64,000 bases of DNA from Escherichia coli (GCF_003790525.1 NZ_CP033635.1), one strand, 5' to 3'. Shown: positions 26,830 to 31,813, counted from the stretch's first letter. Program-made: numbers and translations. Notes: generated from the letters alone by a model not told the origin.

Positions 26830-27576
26830 ATGTTAAAAAAGATACTTTTACTGGCTCTGCTTCCTGCAATCGCCTTCGCAGAGGAACTTCCTGCCCCAGT
26901 AAAAGCGATTGAAAAACAGGGCATTACAATCATCAAAACGTTCGATGCTCCCGGAGGAATGAAAGGTTATCTCGGCAAGTATCAGGATATGGGCGTCACC
27001 ATCTACCTGACTCCAGATGGTAAGCACGCTATCTCCGGTTACATGTACAACGAGAAAGGTGAAAACCTGAGTAACACACTTATCGAAAAAGAAATTTACG
27101 CACCCGCCGGACGCGAAATGTGGCAACGGATGGAACAATCCCACTGGCTCCTCGACGGTAAAAAAGACGCGCCGGTCATTGTCTACGTCTTCGCCGATCC
27201 GTTCTGCCCATATTGTAAACAGTTCTGGCAGCAGGCTCGCCCGTGGGTAGATTCTGGCAAAGTGCAATTAAGAACATTGTTGGTTGGCGTTATCAAGCCA
27301 GAAAGCCCGGCGACAGCAGCGGCAATTCTTGCCTCCAAAGATCCCGCAAAAACCTGGCAAGAATATGAAGCCTCTGGTGGCAAGCTTAAGCTAAACGTGC
27401 CTGCAAACGTAAGTACAGAGCAAATGAAAGTGTTAAGCGATAACGAGAAACTGATGGACGATCTGGGGGCAAATGTCACGCCAGCTATCTATTACATGAG
27501 TAAGGAAAATACACTGCAACAGGCCGTGGGGTTGCCCGATCAGAAAACGCTTAATATCATTATGGGGAATAAATAA
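26830..27576 (+). CDS. dsbG: Periplasmic thiol:disulfide interchange protein DsbG
   Basis: 248 aa from [21 protein letters not shown] active site. Confidence 0.9.
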
Positions 27577-27780
27577 AAGATAATTCATGGATGGTTGAAA
27601 TATATTCCTGCTTTTCAACCATCCTAAAAAAGCATGAATTGCTCGTAACCCACCTGACAGCTATGCTATTTTAGAAAATCTTAATCCAAAGTTAAGCAGA
27701 AAAACATAACACATATAAATACAACAACATTATTGATCAAGTGAATGATTTATGGAAGAGACAATACAACGGAGTATGTT

Positions 27781-28683
27781 ATGGCTAATCTTTATGATCT
27801 AAAAAAATTTGACCTCAATTTACTGGTTATATTTGAATGTATTTATCAACATCTCAGCATTAGTAAAGCGGCAGAATCATTATATATAACGCCCTCTGCT
27901 GTTAGTCAGTCGTTACAACGTTTACGTGCGCAATTTAATGACCCGTTATTCATTCGCTCAGGGAAAGGTATCGCGCCGACTACAACAGGGTTAAACCTGC
28001 ATCACCATCTTGAGAAAAATCTCAGAGGCCTTGAACAAACGATCAATATCGTTAATAAGTCTGAACTAAAGAAAAATTTTATTATCTACGGTCCTCAGCT
28101 TATTTCTTGTACTAATAACAACATGCTAATCCGCTGTCTTAGACAAGATACTTCAATCGATATAGAATGCCATGACATACTGCTTTCAGCTGAAAATGCC
28201 GAAGAACTGTTGGTTCAACGCAAAACTGACCTGGCAATTACACTACAACCAGTAATTAGCCGCTCTGTCATCTGCATGCCGTTACATACTATTCGCAATT
28301 CTCTTATATGTAGCAACAGACATCCTCGTATTACCGATACCAGTAACTATGAACAAATTATCGCCGAAGAATTCACCCTGTTGATATCTAAATCAGCAGG
28401 GATTGACGAAATTCAAATGGACATAGATGAACGTTTTATGAACCGTAAAGTTTCATTTCGCAGTTCTTCTTTGATGACTATAATTAATAGTATTTCTGTT
28501 ACTGACTTATTAGGCATTGTGCCCACCGAACTGTACAATTTACATCGTGACTTTTTGAAGTTAAAAGAAATAAAACTGGAACAACCTCTTCCTGCGGTTA
28601 AACTTTATATTTCCTATAACAAGGCTTCGTTGAACAACCTTGTCTTCTCCCGATTCATAGATCGTTTAAATGATAGCTTCTGA
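27781..28683 (+). CDS. ybdO: LysR-family transcriptional regulator YbdO
   Basis: 300 aa from MANLYDLKKF; LysR HTH; very AT-rich. Confidence 0.85.
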   Translation: MANLYDLKKFDLNLLVIFECIYQHLSISKAAESLYITPSAVSQSLQRLRAQFNDPLFIRSGKGIAPTTTGLNLHHHLEKNLRGLEQTINIVNKSELKKNFIIYGPQLISCTNNNMLIRCLRQDTSIDIECHDILLSAENAEELLVQRKTDLAITLQPVISRSVICMPLHTIRNSLICSNRHPRITDTSNYEQIIAEEFTLLISKSAGIDEIQMDIDERFMNRKVSFRSSSLMTIINSISVTDLLGIVPTELYNLHRDFLKLKEIKLEQPLPAVKLYISYNKASLNNLVFSRFIDRLNDSF

Positions 28684-28829
28684 TTCATTACCACTGACAA
28701 ATAATATATTACGCATCAATTAATTCATTATGTGAATATAAAATAATGTGCTCTATCTTGCTTCGTTTATCCTATAATTAGCGGATTCATCTCACGAGTC
28801 ACCCCGTAACGTTCAGAGAGCGTTTTTAG

Positions 28830-30050
28830 ATGTCTATTTATAAAATCCCGCTTCCACTGAATATTCTGGAAGCTGCAAAAGAACGTATTACCTGGACACT
28901 TAATACCCTACCCCGTATCTGTGTTTCTTTTTCGGGTGGTAAAGATTCCGGATTAATGCTGCATCTGACCGCCGAAATTGCCCGACAAATGGGCAAAAAA
29001 ATCTGCGTTTTGTTTATCGACTGGGAAGCGCAGTTCTCATGCACTATTAACTATGTTCAGTCATTACGTGAGTTTTACGCCGATGTCATCGAAGAGTTTT
29101 ACTGGGTTGCGCTCCCGCTTACGACGCAAAATTCCCTTTCTCAATACCAACCCGAATGGCAGTGCTGGGAACCTGATGTCGAATGGGTACGTCAGCCCCC
29201 GCAAGATGCGATAACCGATCCTGACTTTTTCTCCTTTTACCAGCCTGGCATGACCTTCGAACAATTTGTGCGTGAGTTTGCCGAATGGTTTTCGCAAAAA
29301 CGTCCGGCGGCGATGATGATCGGCATCCGTGCGGATGAGTCCTACAACCGTTTTGTCGCCATCGCCAGTTTAAATAAACAACGTTTTGCCGATGATAAGC
29401 CCTGGACTACTGCCGCACCAGGCGGTCATAGCTGGTACATTTACCCCATCTACGACTGGAAAGTCGCTGATATCTGGACCTGGTATGCTAACCATCAACA
29501 GCTCTGTAACCCACTGTATAATATAATGTATCAGGCAGGCGTTCCTCTGCGTCATATGCGAATTTGCGAACCTTTTGGCCCGGAGCAACGGCAAGGATTA
29601 TGGCTCTATCACGTTATCGAACCGGATCGCTGGGCTGCTATGTGCGCACGAGTCAGCGGGGTAAAAAGTGGCGGCATTTACGCCGGACATGATAATCATT
29701 TTTATGGTCATCGGAAAATCCTCAAGCCAGAACATTTAGACTGGCAAGAATATGCATTATTGCTGCTCAATAGCATGCCGGAAAAAACAGCTGAGCATTA
29801 CCGCAATAAAATCGCCATTTATTTGCACTGGTATCAGAAAAAAGGCATCGAAGTTCCACAAACCCAGCAAGGGGACATTGGCGCGAAAGATATCCCCTCC
29901 TGGCGGCGAATATGCAAAGTTTTACTCAATAACGATTACTGGTGCCGGGCATTATCATTTAGTCCTACGAAAGCGAAGAACTATCAGCGTTATAACGAAC
30001 GGATAAAAGGAAAACGTCAGGAATGGGGGATACTATGCAACAACGATTAA
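28830..30050 (+). CDS. ybdN: PAPS-reductase-like PP-loop ATP pyrophosphatase family protein YbdN (IbrA-like)
   Basis: 406 aa; PP-loop motif SFSGGKDS near the N-terminus. Confidence 0.85.
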   Translation: MSIYKIPLPLNILEAAKERITWTLNTLPRICVSFSGGKDSGLMLHLTAEIARQMGKKICVLFIDWEAQFSCTINYVQSLREFYADVIEEFYWVALPLTTQNSLSQYQPEWQCWEPDVEWVRQPPQDAITDPDFFSFYQPGMTFEQFVREFAEWFSQKRPAAMMIGIRADESYNRFVAIASLNKQRFADDKPWTTAAPGGHSWYIYPIYDWKVADIWTWYANHQQLCNPLYNIMYQAGVPLRHMRICEPFGPEQRQGLWLYHVIEPDRWAAMCARVSGVKSGGIYAGHDNHFYGHRKILKPEHLDWQEYALLLLNSMPEKTAEHYRNKIAIYLHWYQKKGIEVPQTQQGDIGAKDIPSWRRICKVLLNNDYWCRALSFSPTKAKNYQRYNERIKGKRQEWGILCNND

Positions 30051-30652
30051 CGCAGGATTTAACCCAATTTCTCGCCAGCTTGCCGGAAGATGATCGCATC
30101 AAAGCGATTAATGAAATCCGCATGGCGATCCATCAGGTTAGCCCCTTTCGTGAAGAGCCAGTGGATTGCGTTCTGTGGGTTAAAAACAGCCAACTTATGC
30201 CTAATGATTACAACCCAAACAACGTGGCACCACCCGAAAAAAAACTGCTGAAAAAATCCATTGAAATAGATGGTTTTACCCAACCCATTGTGGTCACGCA
30301 TACGGATAAAAATGCCCTGGAAATCGTGGATGGTTTTCACCGCCATGAAATTGGTAAAGGCTCATCATCGTTAAAATTACGCTTAAAAGGTTATTTGCCG
30401 GTGACCTGTCTGGAAGGTACGCGTAATCAACGCATCGCCGCAACTATTCGTCATAATCGCGCTCGTGGACGTCACCAAATCACTGCCATGTCAGAAATCG
30501 TCCGAGAACTCAGCCAGTTGGGATGGGACGATAATAAAATTGGCAAAGAGCTGGGAATGGACAGCGACGAAGTGTTGCGCCTGAAGCAAATTAACGGCCT
30601 GCAAGAGTTGTTTGCCGACCGTCAATTTTCCCGCGCCTGGACGGTTAAATAA
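30023..30652 (+). CDS. ybdM: ParB/sulfiredoxin-fold protein YbdM (IbrB-like)
   Basis: 209 aa; DGFHR motif typical of the ParB N-terminal domain; overlaps the ybdN 3' end by 28 nt. Confidence 0.8.
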   Translation: MGDTMQQRLTQDLTQFLASLPEDDRIKAINEIRMAIHQVSPFREEPVDCVLWVKNSQLMPNDYNPNNVAPPEKKLLKKSIEIDGFTQPIVVTHTDKNALEIVDGFHRHEIGKGSSSLKLRLKGYLPVTCLEGTRNQRIAATIRHNRARGRHQITAMSEIVRELSQLGWDDNKIGKELGMDSDEVLRLKQINGLQELFADRQFSRAWTVK

Positions 30653-31813
30653 CTAAAGCTGGCGCAGGCGTTCTGCTGCTGCCAGCAACGTCGATTCCTT
30701 CTTGGCAAAACAGAGACGAATCAGTTTATGTGGGAAGGGATCGGCGCAAAACACCGACAGCGGAATCGCCGCTACGCCGTGCTCCCGCGTCAGCCACTGG
30801 CAAAACTCAACATCATCCAGCGTAGATACGGCGCTGTAATCCACCAGCAAAAAGTATGTACCTTCGCACGGTAAAATCTCCAGCCGACTTTCATTTAAGG
30901 CATTCACCAGAATATCGCGCTTCTGGCGATAAAAGTCCGGTAACGCAAGATAATGCTCAGGTTCTGCACGTAGCATATCGGCAAGCGCCAACTGTGCCGG
31001 GGTATTCACCGAAAAGGTCAGATACTGATGCACTTTGCGGATCTCGGCGCTGATGGGCGCAGGTGCAACGCAATACCCCACTTTCCAGCCGGTCATATGA
31101 TAGGTCTTGCCAAACGATGACACCGCCACCGCTCGCTCACACAATTGCGGATGCGCCAGCACGCTGGCATGGCCCTGTTGTGAAAAATTGATGTGCTCGT
31201 AGACTTCATCGCTAATGACAAAAATCTCGTGCCCGGCAATCGCCTGCCACAGAGCGGAGAAATCAGCCTACTGCCAGACAGTTGCACTGGGGTTATGCGG
31301 GGTGTTGAGGATCACCAGTCGGGTGCGCTCGCTTAACAATGCGGCAAATTCCTGCCAGTCCACGCGAAAATGCGGTGGTTGCAGTGCAATACGTTTCACT
31401 ATTCCCCCCGAAAGCGCGATGGCGGGCGCGTAACTGTCATAGCTGGGATCAAAGCAAATCACTTCATCGCCATTGCGAACCAATGCAGTAATCGCTGCGT
31501 ATAGCGCTTCCGTCGCCCCTGCTGTTACGGTGATATCGCTGTCGGCATCTGGTTGATAGCCATACAGCCGTTCCGTTTTCTGAGCAATCGCCTCGCGTAA
31601 TGCCTGCACGCCGGTCATGGGTGCGTATTGGTTTGCCCCCTGGGCAACGTGGTACGCCAGCCGTTCCTGCAAATAGCGCGGACCATCAAAATCAGGAAAG
31701 CCTTGCGACAGGTTAATCGCCTGGTGTTGCTGCGCCAGTGCACTCATCTGGGTGAAAATAGTGGTGCCAAGTTGTGGAAGTTTGCTTTGTGGAATCAGAG
31801 GGTTATTTGTCAT
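30653..31813 (-). pseudogene. ybdL: Methionine aminotransferase YbdL (PLP-dependent), interrupted by an in-frame TAG
   Basis: 386-codon frame is continuous except for an amber codon at 31268-31270 (TVWQ-stop-ADFSALWQ); the aminotransferase sequence continues in frame downstream. Confidence 0.8.

What the first reader, a model, noticed from the sequence alone, without database searches (positions are those of the whole stretch)
27781..30652. AT-rich ybdO-ybdN-ybdM island: LysR regulator plus a PP-loop ATP pyrophosphatase / ParB-like pair of unknown function
A markedly AT-rich block sits between dsbG and ybdL. It encodes a LysR regulator (ybdO) followed by two overlapping genes: ybdN with a PP-loop motif (SFSGGKDS, the PAPS-reductase/DndC-type ATP pyrophosphatase fold) and ybdM with a ParB/sulfiredoxin-type DGFHR motif. 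The 28-nt overlap suggests translational coupling and a two-protein unit. The same domain pairing occurs in nucleic-acid modification systems (the Dnd phosphorothioation module pairs a PAPS-reductase-like DndC with a ParB-fold DndB), and these two proteins resemble the IbrA/IbrB pair described in E. coli ECOR-9. No biochemical function is known for the pair; a cryptic DNA/RNA modification or defence-related role is an inference from domain content only.
Basis: partly seen in the sequence, partly recalled or inferred. Interest (0 to 1): 0.65.

Follow-up and report, generated by a model that had tools for sequence, protein, structure and literature searches.

The report
Silenced IbrA/IbrB-type enzyme pair (ybdNM)
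This is the already catalogued E. coli citR-ybdN-ybdM locus: a repressor gene followed by a tightly coupled ATP-using enzyme and a DNA-binding partner. The pair is common in phages, its chemistry is still unknown, and it most likely acts on DNA to switch genes on.

Summary
citR (ybdO), ybdN and ybdM lie at 27781-30652 in E. coli SMS-3-5, with the stated motifs and a 28-nt overlap. Structure prediction and fold search confirm a PAPS-reductase-type PP-loop fold plus DUF3440 in YbdN, and a ParB/Srx domain plus helix-turn-helix in YbdM.

"Island" is only partly right:
- Only citR and the two intergenic regions are markedly AT-rich.
- The locus is in about 5,420 of 5,426 complete E. coli genomes.
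- It is syntenic in related Enterobacteriaceae.

The pair is essentially obligate. In 73 of 78 loci from many phyla, the YbdM-like gene directly follows the YbdN-like gene. The two proteins also have identical distributions in about 225 phage genomes.

Neither protein matches any known defence system. YbdN lacks the cysteines needed for CysH or DndC chemistry.

About 39% of E. coli genomes also carry accessory copies, often with a PerC regulator and beside adhesin operons. This fits the published IbrAB activation of eib genes.

Published work already shows that CitR represses ybdNM and that H-NS represses citR.

Best reading: a silenced, phage-derived, ATP-dependent enzyme pair that acts on DNA and alters gene expression. 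The chemistry is unproven. The locus is known, so interest is moderate.

The parts
27577..27780 (+). dsbG-citR intergenic region. It holds the dsbG terminator hairpin (27589-27624) and the citR promoter and 5' UTR. GC is 0.314.
   Evidence: Inverted repeat I1, 12 nt and 100% complementary. GC. PMC4720273 maps the ybdO transcription start 107 nt upstream of the start codon (about 27674) and defines H-NS-dependent upstream and downstream elements.
27781..28683 (+). citR (ybdO): LysR-type repressor of ybdNM. AT-rich (GC 0.369), bound by H-NS, and present as two deeply diverged alleles in E. coli.
   Evidence: NCBIfam NF047710 CitR equivalog, 454.8 bits against a cut-off of 400. RefSeq annotation. 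Against K-12: 80.3% nt identity, dS 1.9, dN/dS 0.03. ChIP-exo and RNA-seq in PMC9068703. H-NS data in PMC4720273.
28684..28829 (+). citR-ybdN intergenic region (146 nt, GC 0.336). Presumed ybdNM promoter and operator. Poorly conserved between genera.
   Evidence: Alignment A3. GC. The consensus promoter scan found fewer sites than its shuffled controls.
28830..30050 (+). ybdN: IbrA-family protein. N-terminal PAPS-reductase-type PP-loop ATP pyrophosphatase domain (residues about 10-235) and a basic, all-helical DUF3440 domain (residues 237-400).
28926..28949 (+). PP-loop motif SFSGGKDS (YbdN residues 33-40).
   Evidence: G37, K38 and S40 are invariant, and S35, G36 and D39 are at least 90% conserved, in 57 homologues at 26-84% identity.
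30023..30652 (+). ybdM: IbrB-family protein. N-terminal helical hairpin (residues 1-40, found only in the long subfamily), ParB/Srx nucleotide-binding domain (about 46-150) and C-terminal helix-turn-helix (about 153-196). It overlaps ybdN by 28 nt, or by 16 nt if translation starts at 30035.
30329..30343 (+). DGFHR motif (YbdM residues 103-107). It aligns with ParB box II (GERR).
   Evidence: D103, G104 and R107 are invariant and H106 is at least 90% conserved in 58 homologues. The HMMER alignment to Noc and ParB places DGFHR over GERR.
30449..30469 (+). Invariant arginine-rich motif RHNRARG (YbdM residues 143-149, followed by invariant H151). This is the signature of the IbrB family.
   Evidence: R143, H144, N145, R146, A147, R148, G149 and H151 are invariant across phyla.

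Best explanation
ybdN-ybdM is the core-genome, normally silenced E. coli member of the IbrA/IbrB family. This family is an obligate two-protein, nucleotide-driven module of phage origin that acts on DNA and changes gene expression.

Proposed mechanism:
1. YbdM has a ParB/Srx nucleotide-binding domain and a helix-turn-helix, built like KorB, VirB or ParB. It binds DNA and recruits or gates YbdN.
2. YbdN has a canonical PP-loop. It cleaves ATP to AMP and PPi and transfers the adenylyl group to activate a group on the bound nucleic acid (a base or a phosphate). Its basic DUF3440 domain helps hold the substrate.
3. The resulting covalent change does not involve cysteine- or Fe-S-dependent sulfur transfer. 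It alters transcription, turning on otherwise silent horizontally acquired genes or late phage genes.
4. In E. coli the pair is kept off by CitR, which binds at its own locus and represses ybdNM. H-NS in turn represses citR.

Shown here: the folds, the invariant motifs, the obligate pairing, the phage distribution, the core status and the purifying selection.
Shown in the literature: repression by CitR and by H-NS, and activation of eib genes by IbrAB (the last recalled from memory).
Inferred: DNA as the substrate, adenylyl transfer, physical contact between YbdN and YbdM, and the causal link to transcription.
For: Folds and motifs:
- Both folds are modelled with high confidence.
- The PP-loop, D64, E66, R167, E170, S171, R174 and D214 are invariant or nearly so in 57 YbdN homologues.
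- YbdM has invariant NxYNPN, DGxHR and RHNRARGxH motifs, and its helix-turn-helix is almost unchanged across phyla. This points to a conserved ligand or general DNA binding, not to a species-specific operator.
- The DUF3440 domain has net charge +9, against -7 for the N-terminal domain.

Pairing:
- 73 of 78 loci have the YbdM-like gene directly downstream, and one has it upstream.
- The other four contigs end 52-368 nt after the YbdN-like gene.
- 68 of the 73 downstream genes overlap it or lie within 20 nt; median gap -4 nt.
- In phages, 224 records hold a YbdN homologue and 225 a YbdM homologue, with identical host breakdown.

Links to DNA:
- The nearest relatives of YbdM outside its own family are ParB domains fused to DNA methyltransferases (phrog_498 1e-10; PADLOC MTase_II).
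- Phage neighbours include DNA methyltransferases, extra ParB-like genes and terminases.
- An SNF2-type helicase lies directly upstream in 18 loci.

Links to gene expression:
- In a citR deletion, ybdN rises by log2 5.5 and ybdM by 2.5.
- 86 genes change (flagella and cys regulon up, lrhA down), although the only CitR ChIP-exo peak matched to a differentially expressed gene is upstream of citR-ybdNM (PMC9068703).
- Accessory E. coli paralogues sit next to a PerC-family regulator and YadA-like or fimbrial adhesin operons in 4 of 4 loci inspected, and occur in 2,125 of 5,426 genomes.
- ibrB and perC are co-induced on adherence of STEC (PMC7649339).

Selection: dN/dS is 0.047 for ybdN and 0.072 for ybdM.
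Against: - No modified nucleoside, substrate or enzymatic activity has been reported for any family member in the searched literature.
- Reasoning by analogy from DndB/C, DpdA/B and ParB-methyltransferase fusions does not amount to evidence for this pair.
- The PP-loop family also acts on tRNA, small molecules and cofactors.
- The closest solved structures (FAD synthase, CysD, APS reductase) act on small molecules.
- The gene-expression effects could be indirect.
- The published citR-deletion data do not separate effects of CitR from effects of YbdNM.
- The pair also occurs in virulent phages of Gram-positive hosts that have no H-NS, so anti-silencing cannot be its general role.
- Physical interaction of the two proteins was not tested.
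Confidence: 0.4

Rival explanations
1. The pair is purely a DNA-marking or anti-restriction module. It puts a protective covalent modification on phage DNA before packaging. The chromosomal ybdNM copy is a domesticated or orphan modification module with no regulatory purpose.
For: The pair lies immediately upstream of terminase or packaging genes in mycobacteriophage Morty007, Arthrobacter phage Salgado, Faecalibacterium phage Taranis, Pseudoalteromonas phage XCL1123 and a Clostridium prophage. DNA methyltransferases are adjacent in Salgado and in Rhizobium phage RHph_I4. It is present in virulent phages. The ParB domain resembles those of ParB-methyltransferase fusions.
Against: This does not explain the requirement of IbrAB for eib expression, the PerC and adhesin linkage of the accessory copies, or the long retention of a tightly silenced core copy under purifying selection. 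No partner restriction gene is conserved nearby.
Confidence: 0.2
2. YbdM/IbrB is a ParB-family transcription factor or anti-silencer of the VirB/KorB type. It is an NTP-gated DNA clamp that remodels H-NS-DNA complexes. YbdN/IbrA is an accessory cofactor, for example one that makes or regenerates a nucleotide ligand or adenylylates the partner. No nucleic-acid modification is involved.
Against: The helix-turn-helix is nearly invariant from Proteobacteria to Firmicutes, Bacteroidota and an archaeal virus (PMC8813620). That is not expected for an operator-specific regulator, and most of these hosts lack H-NS. The strict co-inheritance with an enzyme that keeps every catalytic PP-loop residue suggests that catalysis is central to the function.
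Confidence: 0.15
3. The pair modifies RNA (tRNA, rRNA or mRNA) and not DNA, as many PP-loop enzymes do (TilS, TtuA, ThiI, NcsA). Translation of particular genes changes as a result.
Against: The closest structures are of the PAPS-reductase, CysD and FAD-synthase type, not tRNA enzymes. The partner belongs to the ParB family, which binds dsDNA. The neighbours are DNA-metabolism genes: an SNF2 helicase, methyltransferases and terminases.
Confidence: 0.1
4. The pair is an anti-phage defence system, or the modification half of one.
For: Weak hits to DndC (2.3e-5) and BrxP (1.7e-4). PP-loop plus ParB pairings occur in Dnd and Dpd (established knowledge). One neighbouring gene in a Heimdallarchaeota MAG matches PDC-S37/Hhe.
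Against: No PADLOC model matches beyond the superfamily level. Nine of ten sampled neighbour proteins had no defence match. No effector or nuclease partner is conserved. The family is abundant in phages themselves, including virulent ones. The E. coli copy is core, not a variable island.
Confidence: 0.07
5. The pair is a small-molecule enzyme for sulfur assimilation or for nucleotide or cofactor metabolism, with no nucleic-acid target. RefSeq names YbdN 'phosphoadenosine phosphosulfate reductase'.
For: The fold is closest to FAD synthase, APS/PAPS reductase and CysD. ParB/Srx members SbnI and SerK are small-molecule kinases. The cys regulon is induced in the citR deletion.
Against: YbdN has no C-terminal ECGLH-type cysteine and no universally conserved cysteine. 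The most commonly conserved cysteine column (81%) is Ala94 in E. coli. NCBIfam PAPS reductase scores are 34-35 bits against cut-offs of 154-254. YbdM carries a helix-turn-helix. The distribution in phages next to packaging and replication genes is hard to reconcile with a metabolic role.
Confidence: 0.05

Closest known systems
IbrA/IbrB of E. coli ECOR-9 (immunoglobulin-binding regulator; Sandt, Hopper and Hill 2002)
   Same: Same two families, same gene order and overlapping genes. RefSeq names YbdM 'IbrB-like domain-containing protein'. Phage proteins annotated IbrA and IbrB match at 4e-77 and 1e-41. A 73%-identical orthologue is named 'IbrA family prophage gene co-activator'.
   Different: ybdNM is a core, syntenic chromosomal copy under CitR and H-NS control, with no PerC or adhesin neighbour. 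IbrAB-type copies are accessory, are found in 39% of genomes on islands and plasmids, and often have perC directly downstream. An effect of ybdNM on eib or any other target has not been tested.
DndB/DndC of DNA phosphorothioation (also SspD and BrxP)
   Same: A PP-loop ATP pyrophosphatase of the PAPS-reductase superfamily is encoded next to a ParB/Srx-superfamily protein with a DGxHR motif.
   Different: The DndC models score 21.6 bits against a cut-off of 290. The DndC-type cysteines and Fe-S ligands are absent. No DndA, DndD or DndE genes are nearby. YbdM gives no DndB model hit at E<=0.01. In Dnd, DndB is a regulator and is not obligately coupled to DndC.
DpdA/DpdB of 7-deazaguanine DNA modification
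   Same: A ParB-like NTPase works with a DNA-modifying enzyme, and SNF2-type helicases occur in the same clusters (PMC12839542). IbrAB-like pairs have an SNF2-like helicase upstream in 18 loci.
   Different: The catalytic partner here is a PP-loop enzyme, not a tRNA-guanine-transglycosylase homologue. There are no preQ0 synthesis genes and no restriction module.
ParB-family transcription regulators and anti-silencers: KorB (RK2) and VirB (Shigella)
   Different: The motif is DGxHR of the sulfiredoxin/DndB type, not GERRxR. There is a unique invariant RHNRARGxH motif. There is no C-terminal dimerisation domain like that of ParB. The pair is obligately coupled to an enzyme. CTP binding was not tested.
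Phage ParB-domain DNA methyltransferase fusions
   Same: After its own family, the ParB domain of YbdM is most similar to these (phrog_498 9.9e-11; PADLOC MTase_II 6.5e-4). This suggests that a ParB module delivers a DNA-modifying activity.
   Different: Here the catalytic activity is a separate PP-loop protein, not a fused SAM-dependent methyltransferase.

Membership tests
PAPS-reductase / PP-loop ATP pyrophosphatase superfamily (PF01507) | Rossmann-like alpha/beta fold of the adenine nucleotide alpha-hydrolase type | tested here: met
PAPS-reductase / PP-loop ATP pyrophosphatase superfamily (PF01507) | SGGxDS PP-loop for ATP alpha-beta cleavage | tested here: met
   SFSGGKDS at residues 33-40. 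G37, K38 and S40 are invariant in 57 homologues.
Authentic PAPS/APS reductase (CysH) | Conserved C-terminal catalytic cysteine (ECGLH) and a score above the family cut-off | tested here: not met
   No invariant or nearly invariant cysteine. TIGR02057 scores 35.1 bits against 254, and NF002537 scores 33.9 against 154. The RefSeq product name is therefore an over-annotation.
DndC (DNA phosphorothioation) | DndC-specific sequence signature, Fe-S/cysteine ligands, and dndA/D/E neighbours | tested here: not met
   TIGR03183 scores 21.6 bits against 290. PADLOC DndC 2.3e-5, over residues 155-254 only. No conserved cysteines. The neighbours are dsbG, citR and ybdL.
ParB/Srx superfamily | ParB N-terminal/sulfiredoxin fold with a phosphate-binding G-x-x-R (DGxHR / GERR) motif | tested here: met
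Canonical partition ParB | ParA partner, a parS site, a C-terminal dimerisation domain, and a score above the family cut-off | tested here: not met
   TIGR00180 scores 15.8 bits against 58. No parA is adjacent. The protein ends after the HTH. A search for a conserved palindrome in the flanks found only a coding motif.
ParB/Srx superfamily | NTP (CTP or ATP) binding or hydrolysis | not testable with these tools
   Needs biochemistry. Only conservation of the pocket residues was shown.
IbrA/IbrB family | PAPS_reduct+DUF3440 protein encoded immediately before, and usually overlapping, a DGxHR ParB-like+HTH protein | tested here: met
   28-nt overlap in the window. 73 of 78 loci have this order. 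PHROG 2302 3e-76, PHROG 15645 5.6e-86 and PHROG 2159 1.1e-68.
IbrA/IbrB family | Joint activation of target gene expression (eib) | not tested
   This is a genetic property reported for ECOR-9 IbrAB only (Sandt 2002; the paper is not held). For ybdNM there is only the indirect citR-deletion transcriptome.
Known anti-phage defence systems (PADLOC-DB v2) | Significant match of the components to a defence-system model, and a defence-island neighbourhood | tested here: not met
   YbdN gives only the weak DndC and BrxP hits, YbdM gives only MTase_II at 6.5e-4, and CitR gives none. One of ten sampled neighbour proteins had a defence match.
LysR-type regulator CitR | Full-length match above the equivalog cut-off | tested here: met
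   NF047710 scores 454.8 bits against 400, covering residues 1-294 of 295 profile positions.

The most novel reading that the evidence does not exclude
IbrA/IbrB (YbdN/YbdM) may be a previously uncharacterised, widespread class of ATP-dependent DNA-modifying enzyme. It would not use sulfur and would be delivered to DNA by a ParB-type subunit. It would act as an epigenetic switch: phages would use it on their own or host DNA, and Enterobacteriaceae would have domesticated it (a core ybdNM copy plus accessory ibrAB-perC cassettes) to turn on silenced adhesin, virulence and motility genes. The many transcriptome changes in a citR deletion would then be caused by YbdNM, not by CitR itself.
Probability: 0.25. 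Interest if true: 0.8.

Novelty: already known. Interest (0 to 1): 0.4.

Why it matters
ybdN and ybdM are among the remaining E. coli K-12 genes with no known activity. Their family (IbrA/IbrB) occurs in about 0.4% of sequenced phages, in many bacterial phyla and in an Asgard archaeal virus. In E. coli, extra copies sit beside adhesin operons in roughly 39% of complete genomes.

If the pair proves to be an enzyme that acts on DNA and controls expression of horizontally acquired genes, three things would follow:
- A new nucleic-acid chemistry or regulatory principle would be added.
- The 2002 IbrAB observation would be explained.
- The published CitR (YbdO) phenotypes (flagella, capsule, oxidative stress) could be reinterpreted as effects of YbdNM.

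The locus itself, its domain content and its regulators are already in the databases and the literature. What this analysis adds is a sharper, testable hypothesis, not a discovery.

Tried and rejected
- The consensus promoter and terminator scan of 27400-30900 found fewer sites than its shuffled controls, so it was not informative.
- Rfam at permissive thresholds found no RNA family in 27000-31500.
- I searched the flanks of 65 non-enteric loci for a conserved parS-like palindrome. The only enriched palindrome (AATAATTATT) lies inside the coding sequence of the upstream 139-aa gene in Bacteroidota, so it is not an operator.
- Longer family members and apparent fusions were uninformative or looked like assembly artefacts.
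- The 139-aa upstream family has no Pfam or PHROG match. Its only weak PDB profile hits (E 0.14-0.78) are all GNAT acetyltransferases. This is a hint, not a finding.
- Both searches of the 5.8-billion-protein collection returned only close enterobacterial orthologues in the listed top 120. Diversity came from the representative search and the genome scan instead.
- The PANGU preprint (nucleoid-protein sensors paired with a PAPS reductase) does not concern this family.
- The original IbrAB paper (PMC135156) is not held. Statements about it rest on my memory of its abstract and on citing papers.
Full report
**1. What is in the sequence**

The window matches E. coli SMS-3-5 (NC_010498.1) at 100% identity over 27600-30700. 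The ORF list and the RefSeq annotation agree:

| Gene | Coordinates | Strand |
|---|---|---|
| dsbG | 26830-27576 | + |
| citR (ybdO) | 27781-28683 | + |
| ybdN | 28830-30050 | + |
| ybdM | 30023-30652 | + |
| ybdL | 30653-31813 | - (its stop codon abuts the ybdM stop codon) |

SFSGGKDS is YbdN residues 33-40, and DGFHR is YbdM residues 103-107.
- The 28-nt overlap is correct for the annotated ybdM start.
- Many orthologues are 205 aa and start at Met5 (30035). A GGGGG Shine-Dalgarno sits better before that codon, which would give a 16-nt overlap.
- The "markedly AT-rich block" needs qualifying. citR has GC 0.369, in the lowest 1.4% of 900-bp windows of this window. The two intergenic regions have GC 0.31-0.34.
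- ybdN and ybdM have GC 0.465 against a window mean of 0.516, only about one SD low.

**2. Is it an island?**

- Megablast finds the 3.1-kb region in 5,422 of 5,426 complete E. coli genomes.
- ybdNM alone is at least 80% covered in 5,400 of them.
- In Citrobacter, Enterobacter, Kluyvera and Superficieibacter, the same LysR gene lies upstream and the same aminotransferase gene downstream (families 12 and 6).
- The locus is therefore core and syntenic, not a strain-variable island. An ancient acquisition remains plausible.
- Against K-12, ybdN and ybdM have dN/dS of 0.047 and 0.072, so both are under purifying selection.
- citR differs sharply between the two strains: 80.3% nt identity, dS about 1.9 and dN/dS 0.03, while the flanking genes have dS of 0.01-0.25.
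- This explains the two identity classes seen. It matches Higashi et al. 2016 (PMC4720273), who showed three things. H-NS binds and represses ybdO. ybdO ranks in the top 50 for substitution rate. Its transcript starts 107 nt upstream of the start codon.

**3. Folds**

*YbdN*
- Pfam gives PAPS_reduct at 4.8e-14 and DUF3440 at 5.1e-23.
- An AlphaFold2 model built on 57 diverse homologues has pLDDT 91.9.
- The C-terminal DUF3440 domain is all-helical and basic: net charge +9, against -7 for the N-terminal domain. It has no sequence relative in the PDB.

*YbdM*
- Pfam ParB_N alone is weak (2.8e-4).
- A family profile hits Noc at 3.5e-6 and ParB at 1e-4, with DGFHR aligned over the ParB box II motif GERR.

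*CitR* is a full-length match to the NCBIfam CitR equivalog.

**4. Conserved residues**

- Across 57 YbdN homologues (26-84% identity), the PP-loop, D64, E66, R167, E170, S171, R174, D214 and Y230 are invariant or nearly so.
- No cysteine in YbdN is conserved. The most frequent cysteine column (81%) is Ala94 in E. coli.
- YbdN falls far below the curated cut-offs for PAPS reductase, CysD and DndC.
- It is thus an ATP-using (alpha-beta cleaving) member of the superfamily. It lacks the defining features of CysH and DndC, and the RefSeq name "phosphoadenosine phosphosulfate reductase" is an over-annotation.
- YbdM homologues are unusually conserved, with 49% mean column identity across phyla.
- Their invariant motifs are NxYNPN...E, DGxHR and RHNRARGxH, plus an almost unchanged C-terminal helix-turn-helix.
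- A nearly invariant DNA-binding element in such different hosts suggests general DNA binding or a conserved partner or ligand, not a species-specific operator.

**5. The pair is a unit and is mostly mobile**

- A scan of one genome per species returned 80 loci. They came from Proteobacteria, Bacteroidota, Firmicutes, Verrucomicrobiota, Lentisphaerota, Armatimonadota, Campylobacterota and a Heimdallarchaeota MAG.
- Of 78 loci with an intact YbdN-like ORF, 73 have a YbdM-like ORF directly downstream on the same strand. One has it upstream. The other four contigs end 52-368 nt after the YbdN-like gene.
- Of the 73 downstream genes, 68 overlap the YbdN-like gene or lie within 20 nt; the median gap is -4 nt.
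- In the phage collection, 224 records hold a YbdN homologue and 225 a YbdM homologue. The host breakdown is identical: Flavobacterium 90, Mycobacterium 60, Streptococcus 21, Arthrobacter 12 and so on.
- Both proteins match PHROG families strongly.
- In the annotated phages inspected, the pair lies just before terminase or structural genes in Morty007, Salgado, Taranis and XCL1123. The same is true in a Clostridium prophage.
- It is adjacent to DNA methyltransferases in Salgado and RHph_I4, and an extra ParB-like gene is often encoded nearby.
- In two lactic-acid-bacteria phages it lies between the lysis and early modules.
- Recurrent neighbours in bacterial genomes are an SNF2-type helicase directly upstream (18 loci; phrog_62 at 1e-66) and a 139-aa protein in 27 Bacteroidota loci.
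- That 139-aa protein's only weak profile hits are all GNAT acetyltransferases.
- The LysR gene accompanies the pair only in Enterobacteriaceae.

**6. Defence?**

- PADLOC gives only superfamily-level hits: DndC 2.3e-5, BrxP 1.7e-4 and MTase_II 6.5e-4.
- Of ten sampled neighbouring proteins, one matched a defence model.
- The family is abundant in phages themselves, including virulent ones.
- A defence role is not supported, although so small a sample cannot exclude it.

**7. Links to gene expression**

- Rodionova et al. 2022 (PMC9068703) found a CitR ChIP-exo peak upstream of citR-ybdNM.
- In their citR deletion, ybdN rises by log2 5.5 and ybdM by 2.5.
- Eighty-six genes change: flagella, chemotaxis and the cys regulon go up, and lrhA goes down.
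- The other ChIP peaks did not correspond to differentially expressed genes. This leaves room for YbdNM itself to cause the changes (my inference).
- More sensitive blastn (word size 11) shows extra paralogous copies in E. coli, including two more places in SMS-3-5 outside the window.
- One such cassette, used as a query, is found in 2,125 of 5,426 genomes, with 82 places on plasmids.
- All four contexts inspected lie beside horizontally acquired adhesin genes:
  - a tRNA-Phe island with the order ibrA-like, ibrB-like, perC, YadA-family adhesin;
  - a chromosomal island with F17 fimbriae and a YadA-like gene;
  - two plasmids where the pair follows F4(K88)-type fimbrial operons.
- A PerC-family regulator is directly downstream in three of the four contexts, and lies under the match in about half of the sampled rows.
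- Eib proteins are YadA-family adhesins (my own knowledge). This context therefore fits the 2002 report that ibrA and ibrB together activate eib genes. I recall that report from memory; it is cited, but the paper is not held.
- ibrB and perC are adjacent and co-induced when STEC adheres to epithelial cells (PMC7649339).
- Other scattered data:
  - YbdM protein rises 29-fold in cells carrying a blaCTX-M-15 plasmid, and that paper calls it "completely uncharacterized" (PMC8764527).
  - A ybdM deletion scored as resistant to a lacritin peptide (PMC12147183).
  - ybdL-ybdM is listed as a convergent excludon (PMC12288877).

**8. Most likely mechanism**

I favour an obligate two-subunit, nucleotide-driven machine that acts on DNA.
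- YbdM would be the ParB/KorB-like DNA-binding and gating subunit.
- YbdN would be the PP-loop subunit that transfers an adenylyl group.
- Their action would change transcription of otherwise silent genes.
- The pair would be held off in E. coli by CitR, with H-NS repressing citR.
- The chemical target is unknown. Cysteine- or Fe-S-dependent sulfur transfer is unlikely.
- My confidence is about 0.4.

The rivals are listed with their tests: pure anti-restriction marking, a non-catalytic VirB-like anti-silencer, RNA modification, defence, and small-molecule metabolism.

**9. Novelty**

- The genes, their domains, the IbrAB resemblance and both regulators are already in databases and papers.
- This analysis adds five things: the near-absolute pairing across phyla, the catalogue of invariant motifs, the absence of conserved cysteines, the split between a core copy and accessory copies, and the PerC and adhesin linkage.
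- These sharpen an old open question but do not answer it.

Noticed in passing
window 31268-31270 (ybdL, - strand): ybdL carries an in-frame stop (Gln182 to stop). This is the only difference from RefSeq SMS-3-5 across 21.1 kb: a single base at 31270, where the RefSeq record has an intact 386-aa methionine transaminase. It may be a sequence-version difference, a sequencing error or a true nonsense allele.
   Followed up: partly
window 27781-28683 (citR): citR exists as two deeply diverged alleles in E. coli. SMS-3-5 against K-12: 80.3% nt identity, dS about 1.9, dN/dS 0.03. The flanking genes have dS of 0.01-0.25. In the genome survey, 1,811 genomes are at least 95% identical to the window over the region and 3,550 are 80-90% identical. 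This agrees with the H-NS-linked diversification reported in PMC4720273.
   Followed up: yes
window 30652/30653: The stop codons of ybdM (+) and ybdL (-) abut with no intergenic base, so convergent transcripts must overlap. The pair is listed as a convergent excludon in K-12 (PMC12288877).
   Followed up: partly
E. coli genomes outside the window; L093 8987-11163, L094, L095, L096: Accessory ibrA/ibrB-like cassettes occur in 2,125 of 5,426 complete E. coli genomes (82 places on plasmids). A PerC-family regulator is often directly downstream, and the cassettes lie beside YadA-like adhesin genes or F4/F17 fimbrial operons. SMS-3-5 itself has three places in its chromosome that match ybdNM when searched with the more sensitive blastn setting (word size 11).
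   Followed up: partly
L026 5739-8775, L029 3367-6790, L036, L061, L081 and others: In 18 loci from several phyla an SNF2-type helicase gene (phrog_62) lies immediately upstream of, and often overlaps, the IbrA-like gene. In 27 Bacteroidota loci a 139-aa protein with only faint GNAT-like profile hits lies between them. This suggests larger three- or four-gene versions of the module.
   Followed up: partly
window about 10100-11000 (NC_010498.1 about 655250-656150): The lowest-GC stretch of the window (0.342 over 900 bp) is the dcuC-pagP region. RefSeq annotates there a pagP fragment and a frameshifted IS5-like ISKpn26 transposase next to an intact pagP.
   Followed up: partly
window 27589-27624: A perfect 12-nt inverted repeat (GGATGGTTGAAA ... 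TTTCAACCATCC) lies just after the dsbG stop codon. It is probably the dsbG terminator and marks the left edge of the AT-rich citR regulatory region.
   Followed up: no
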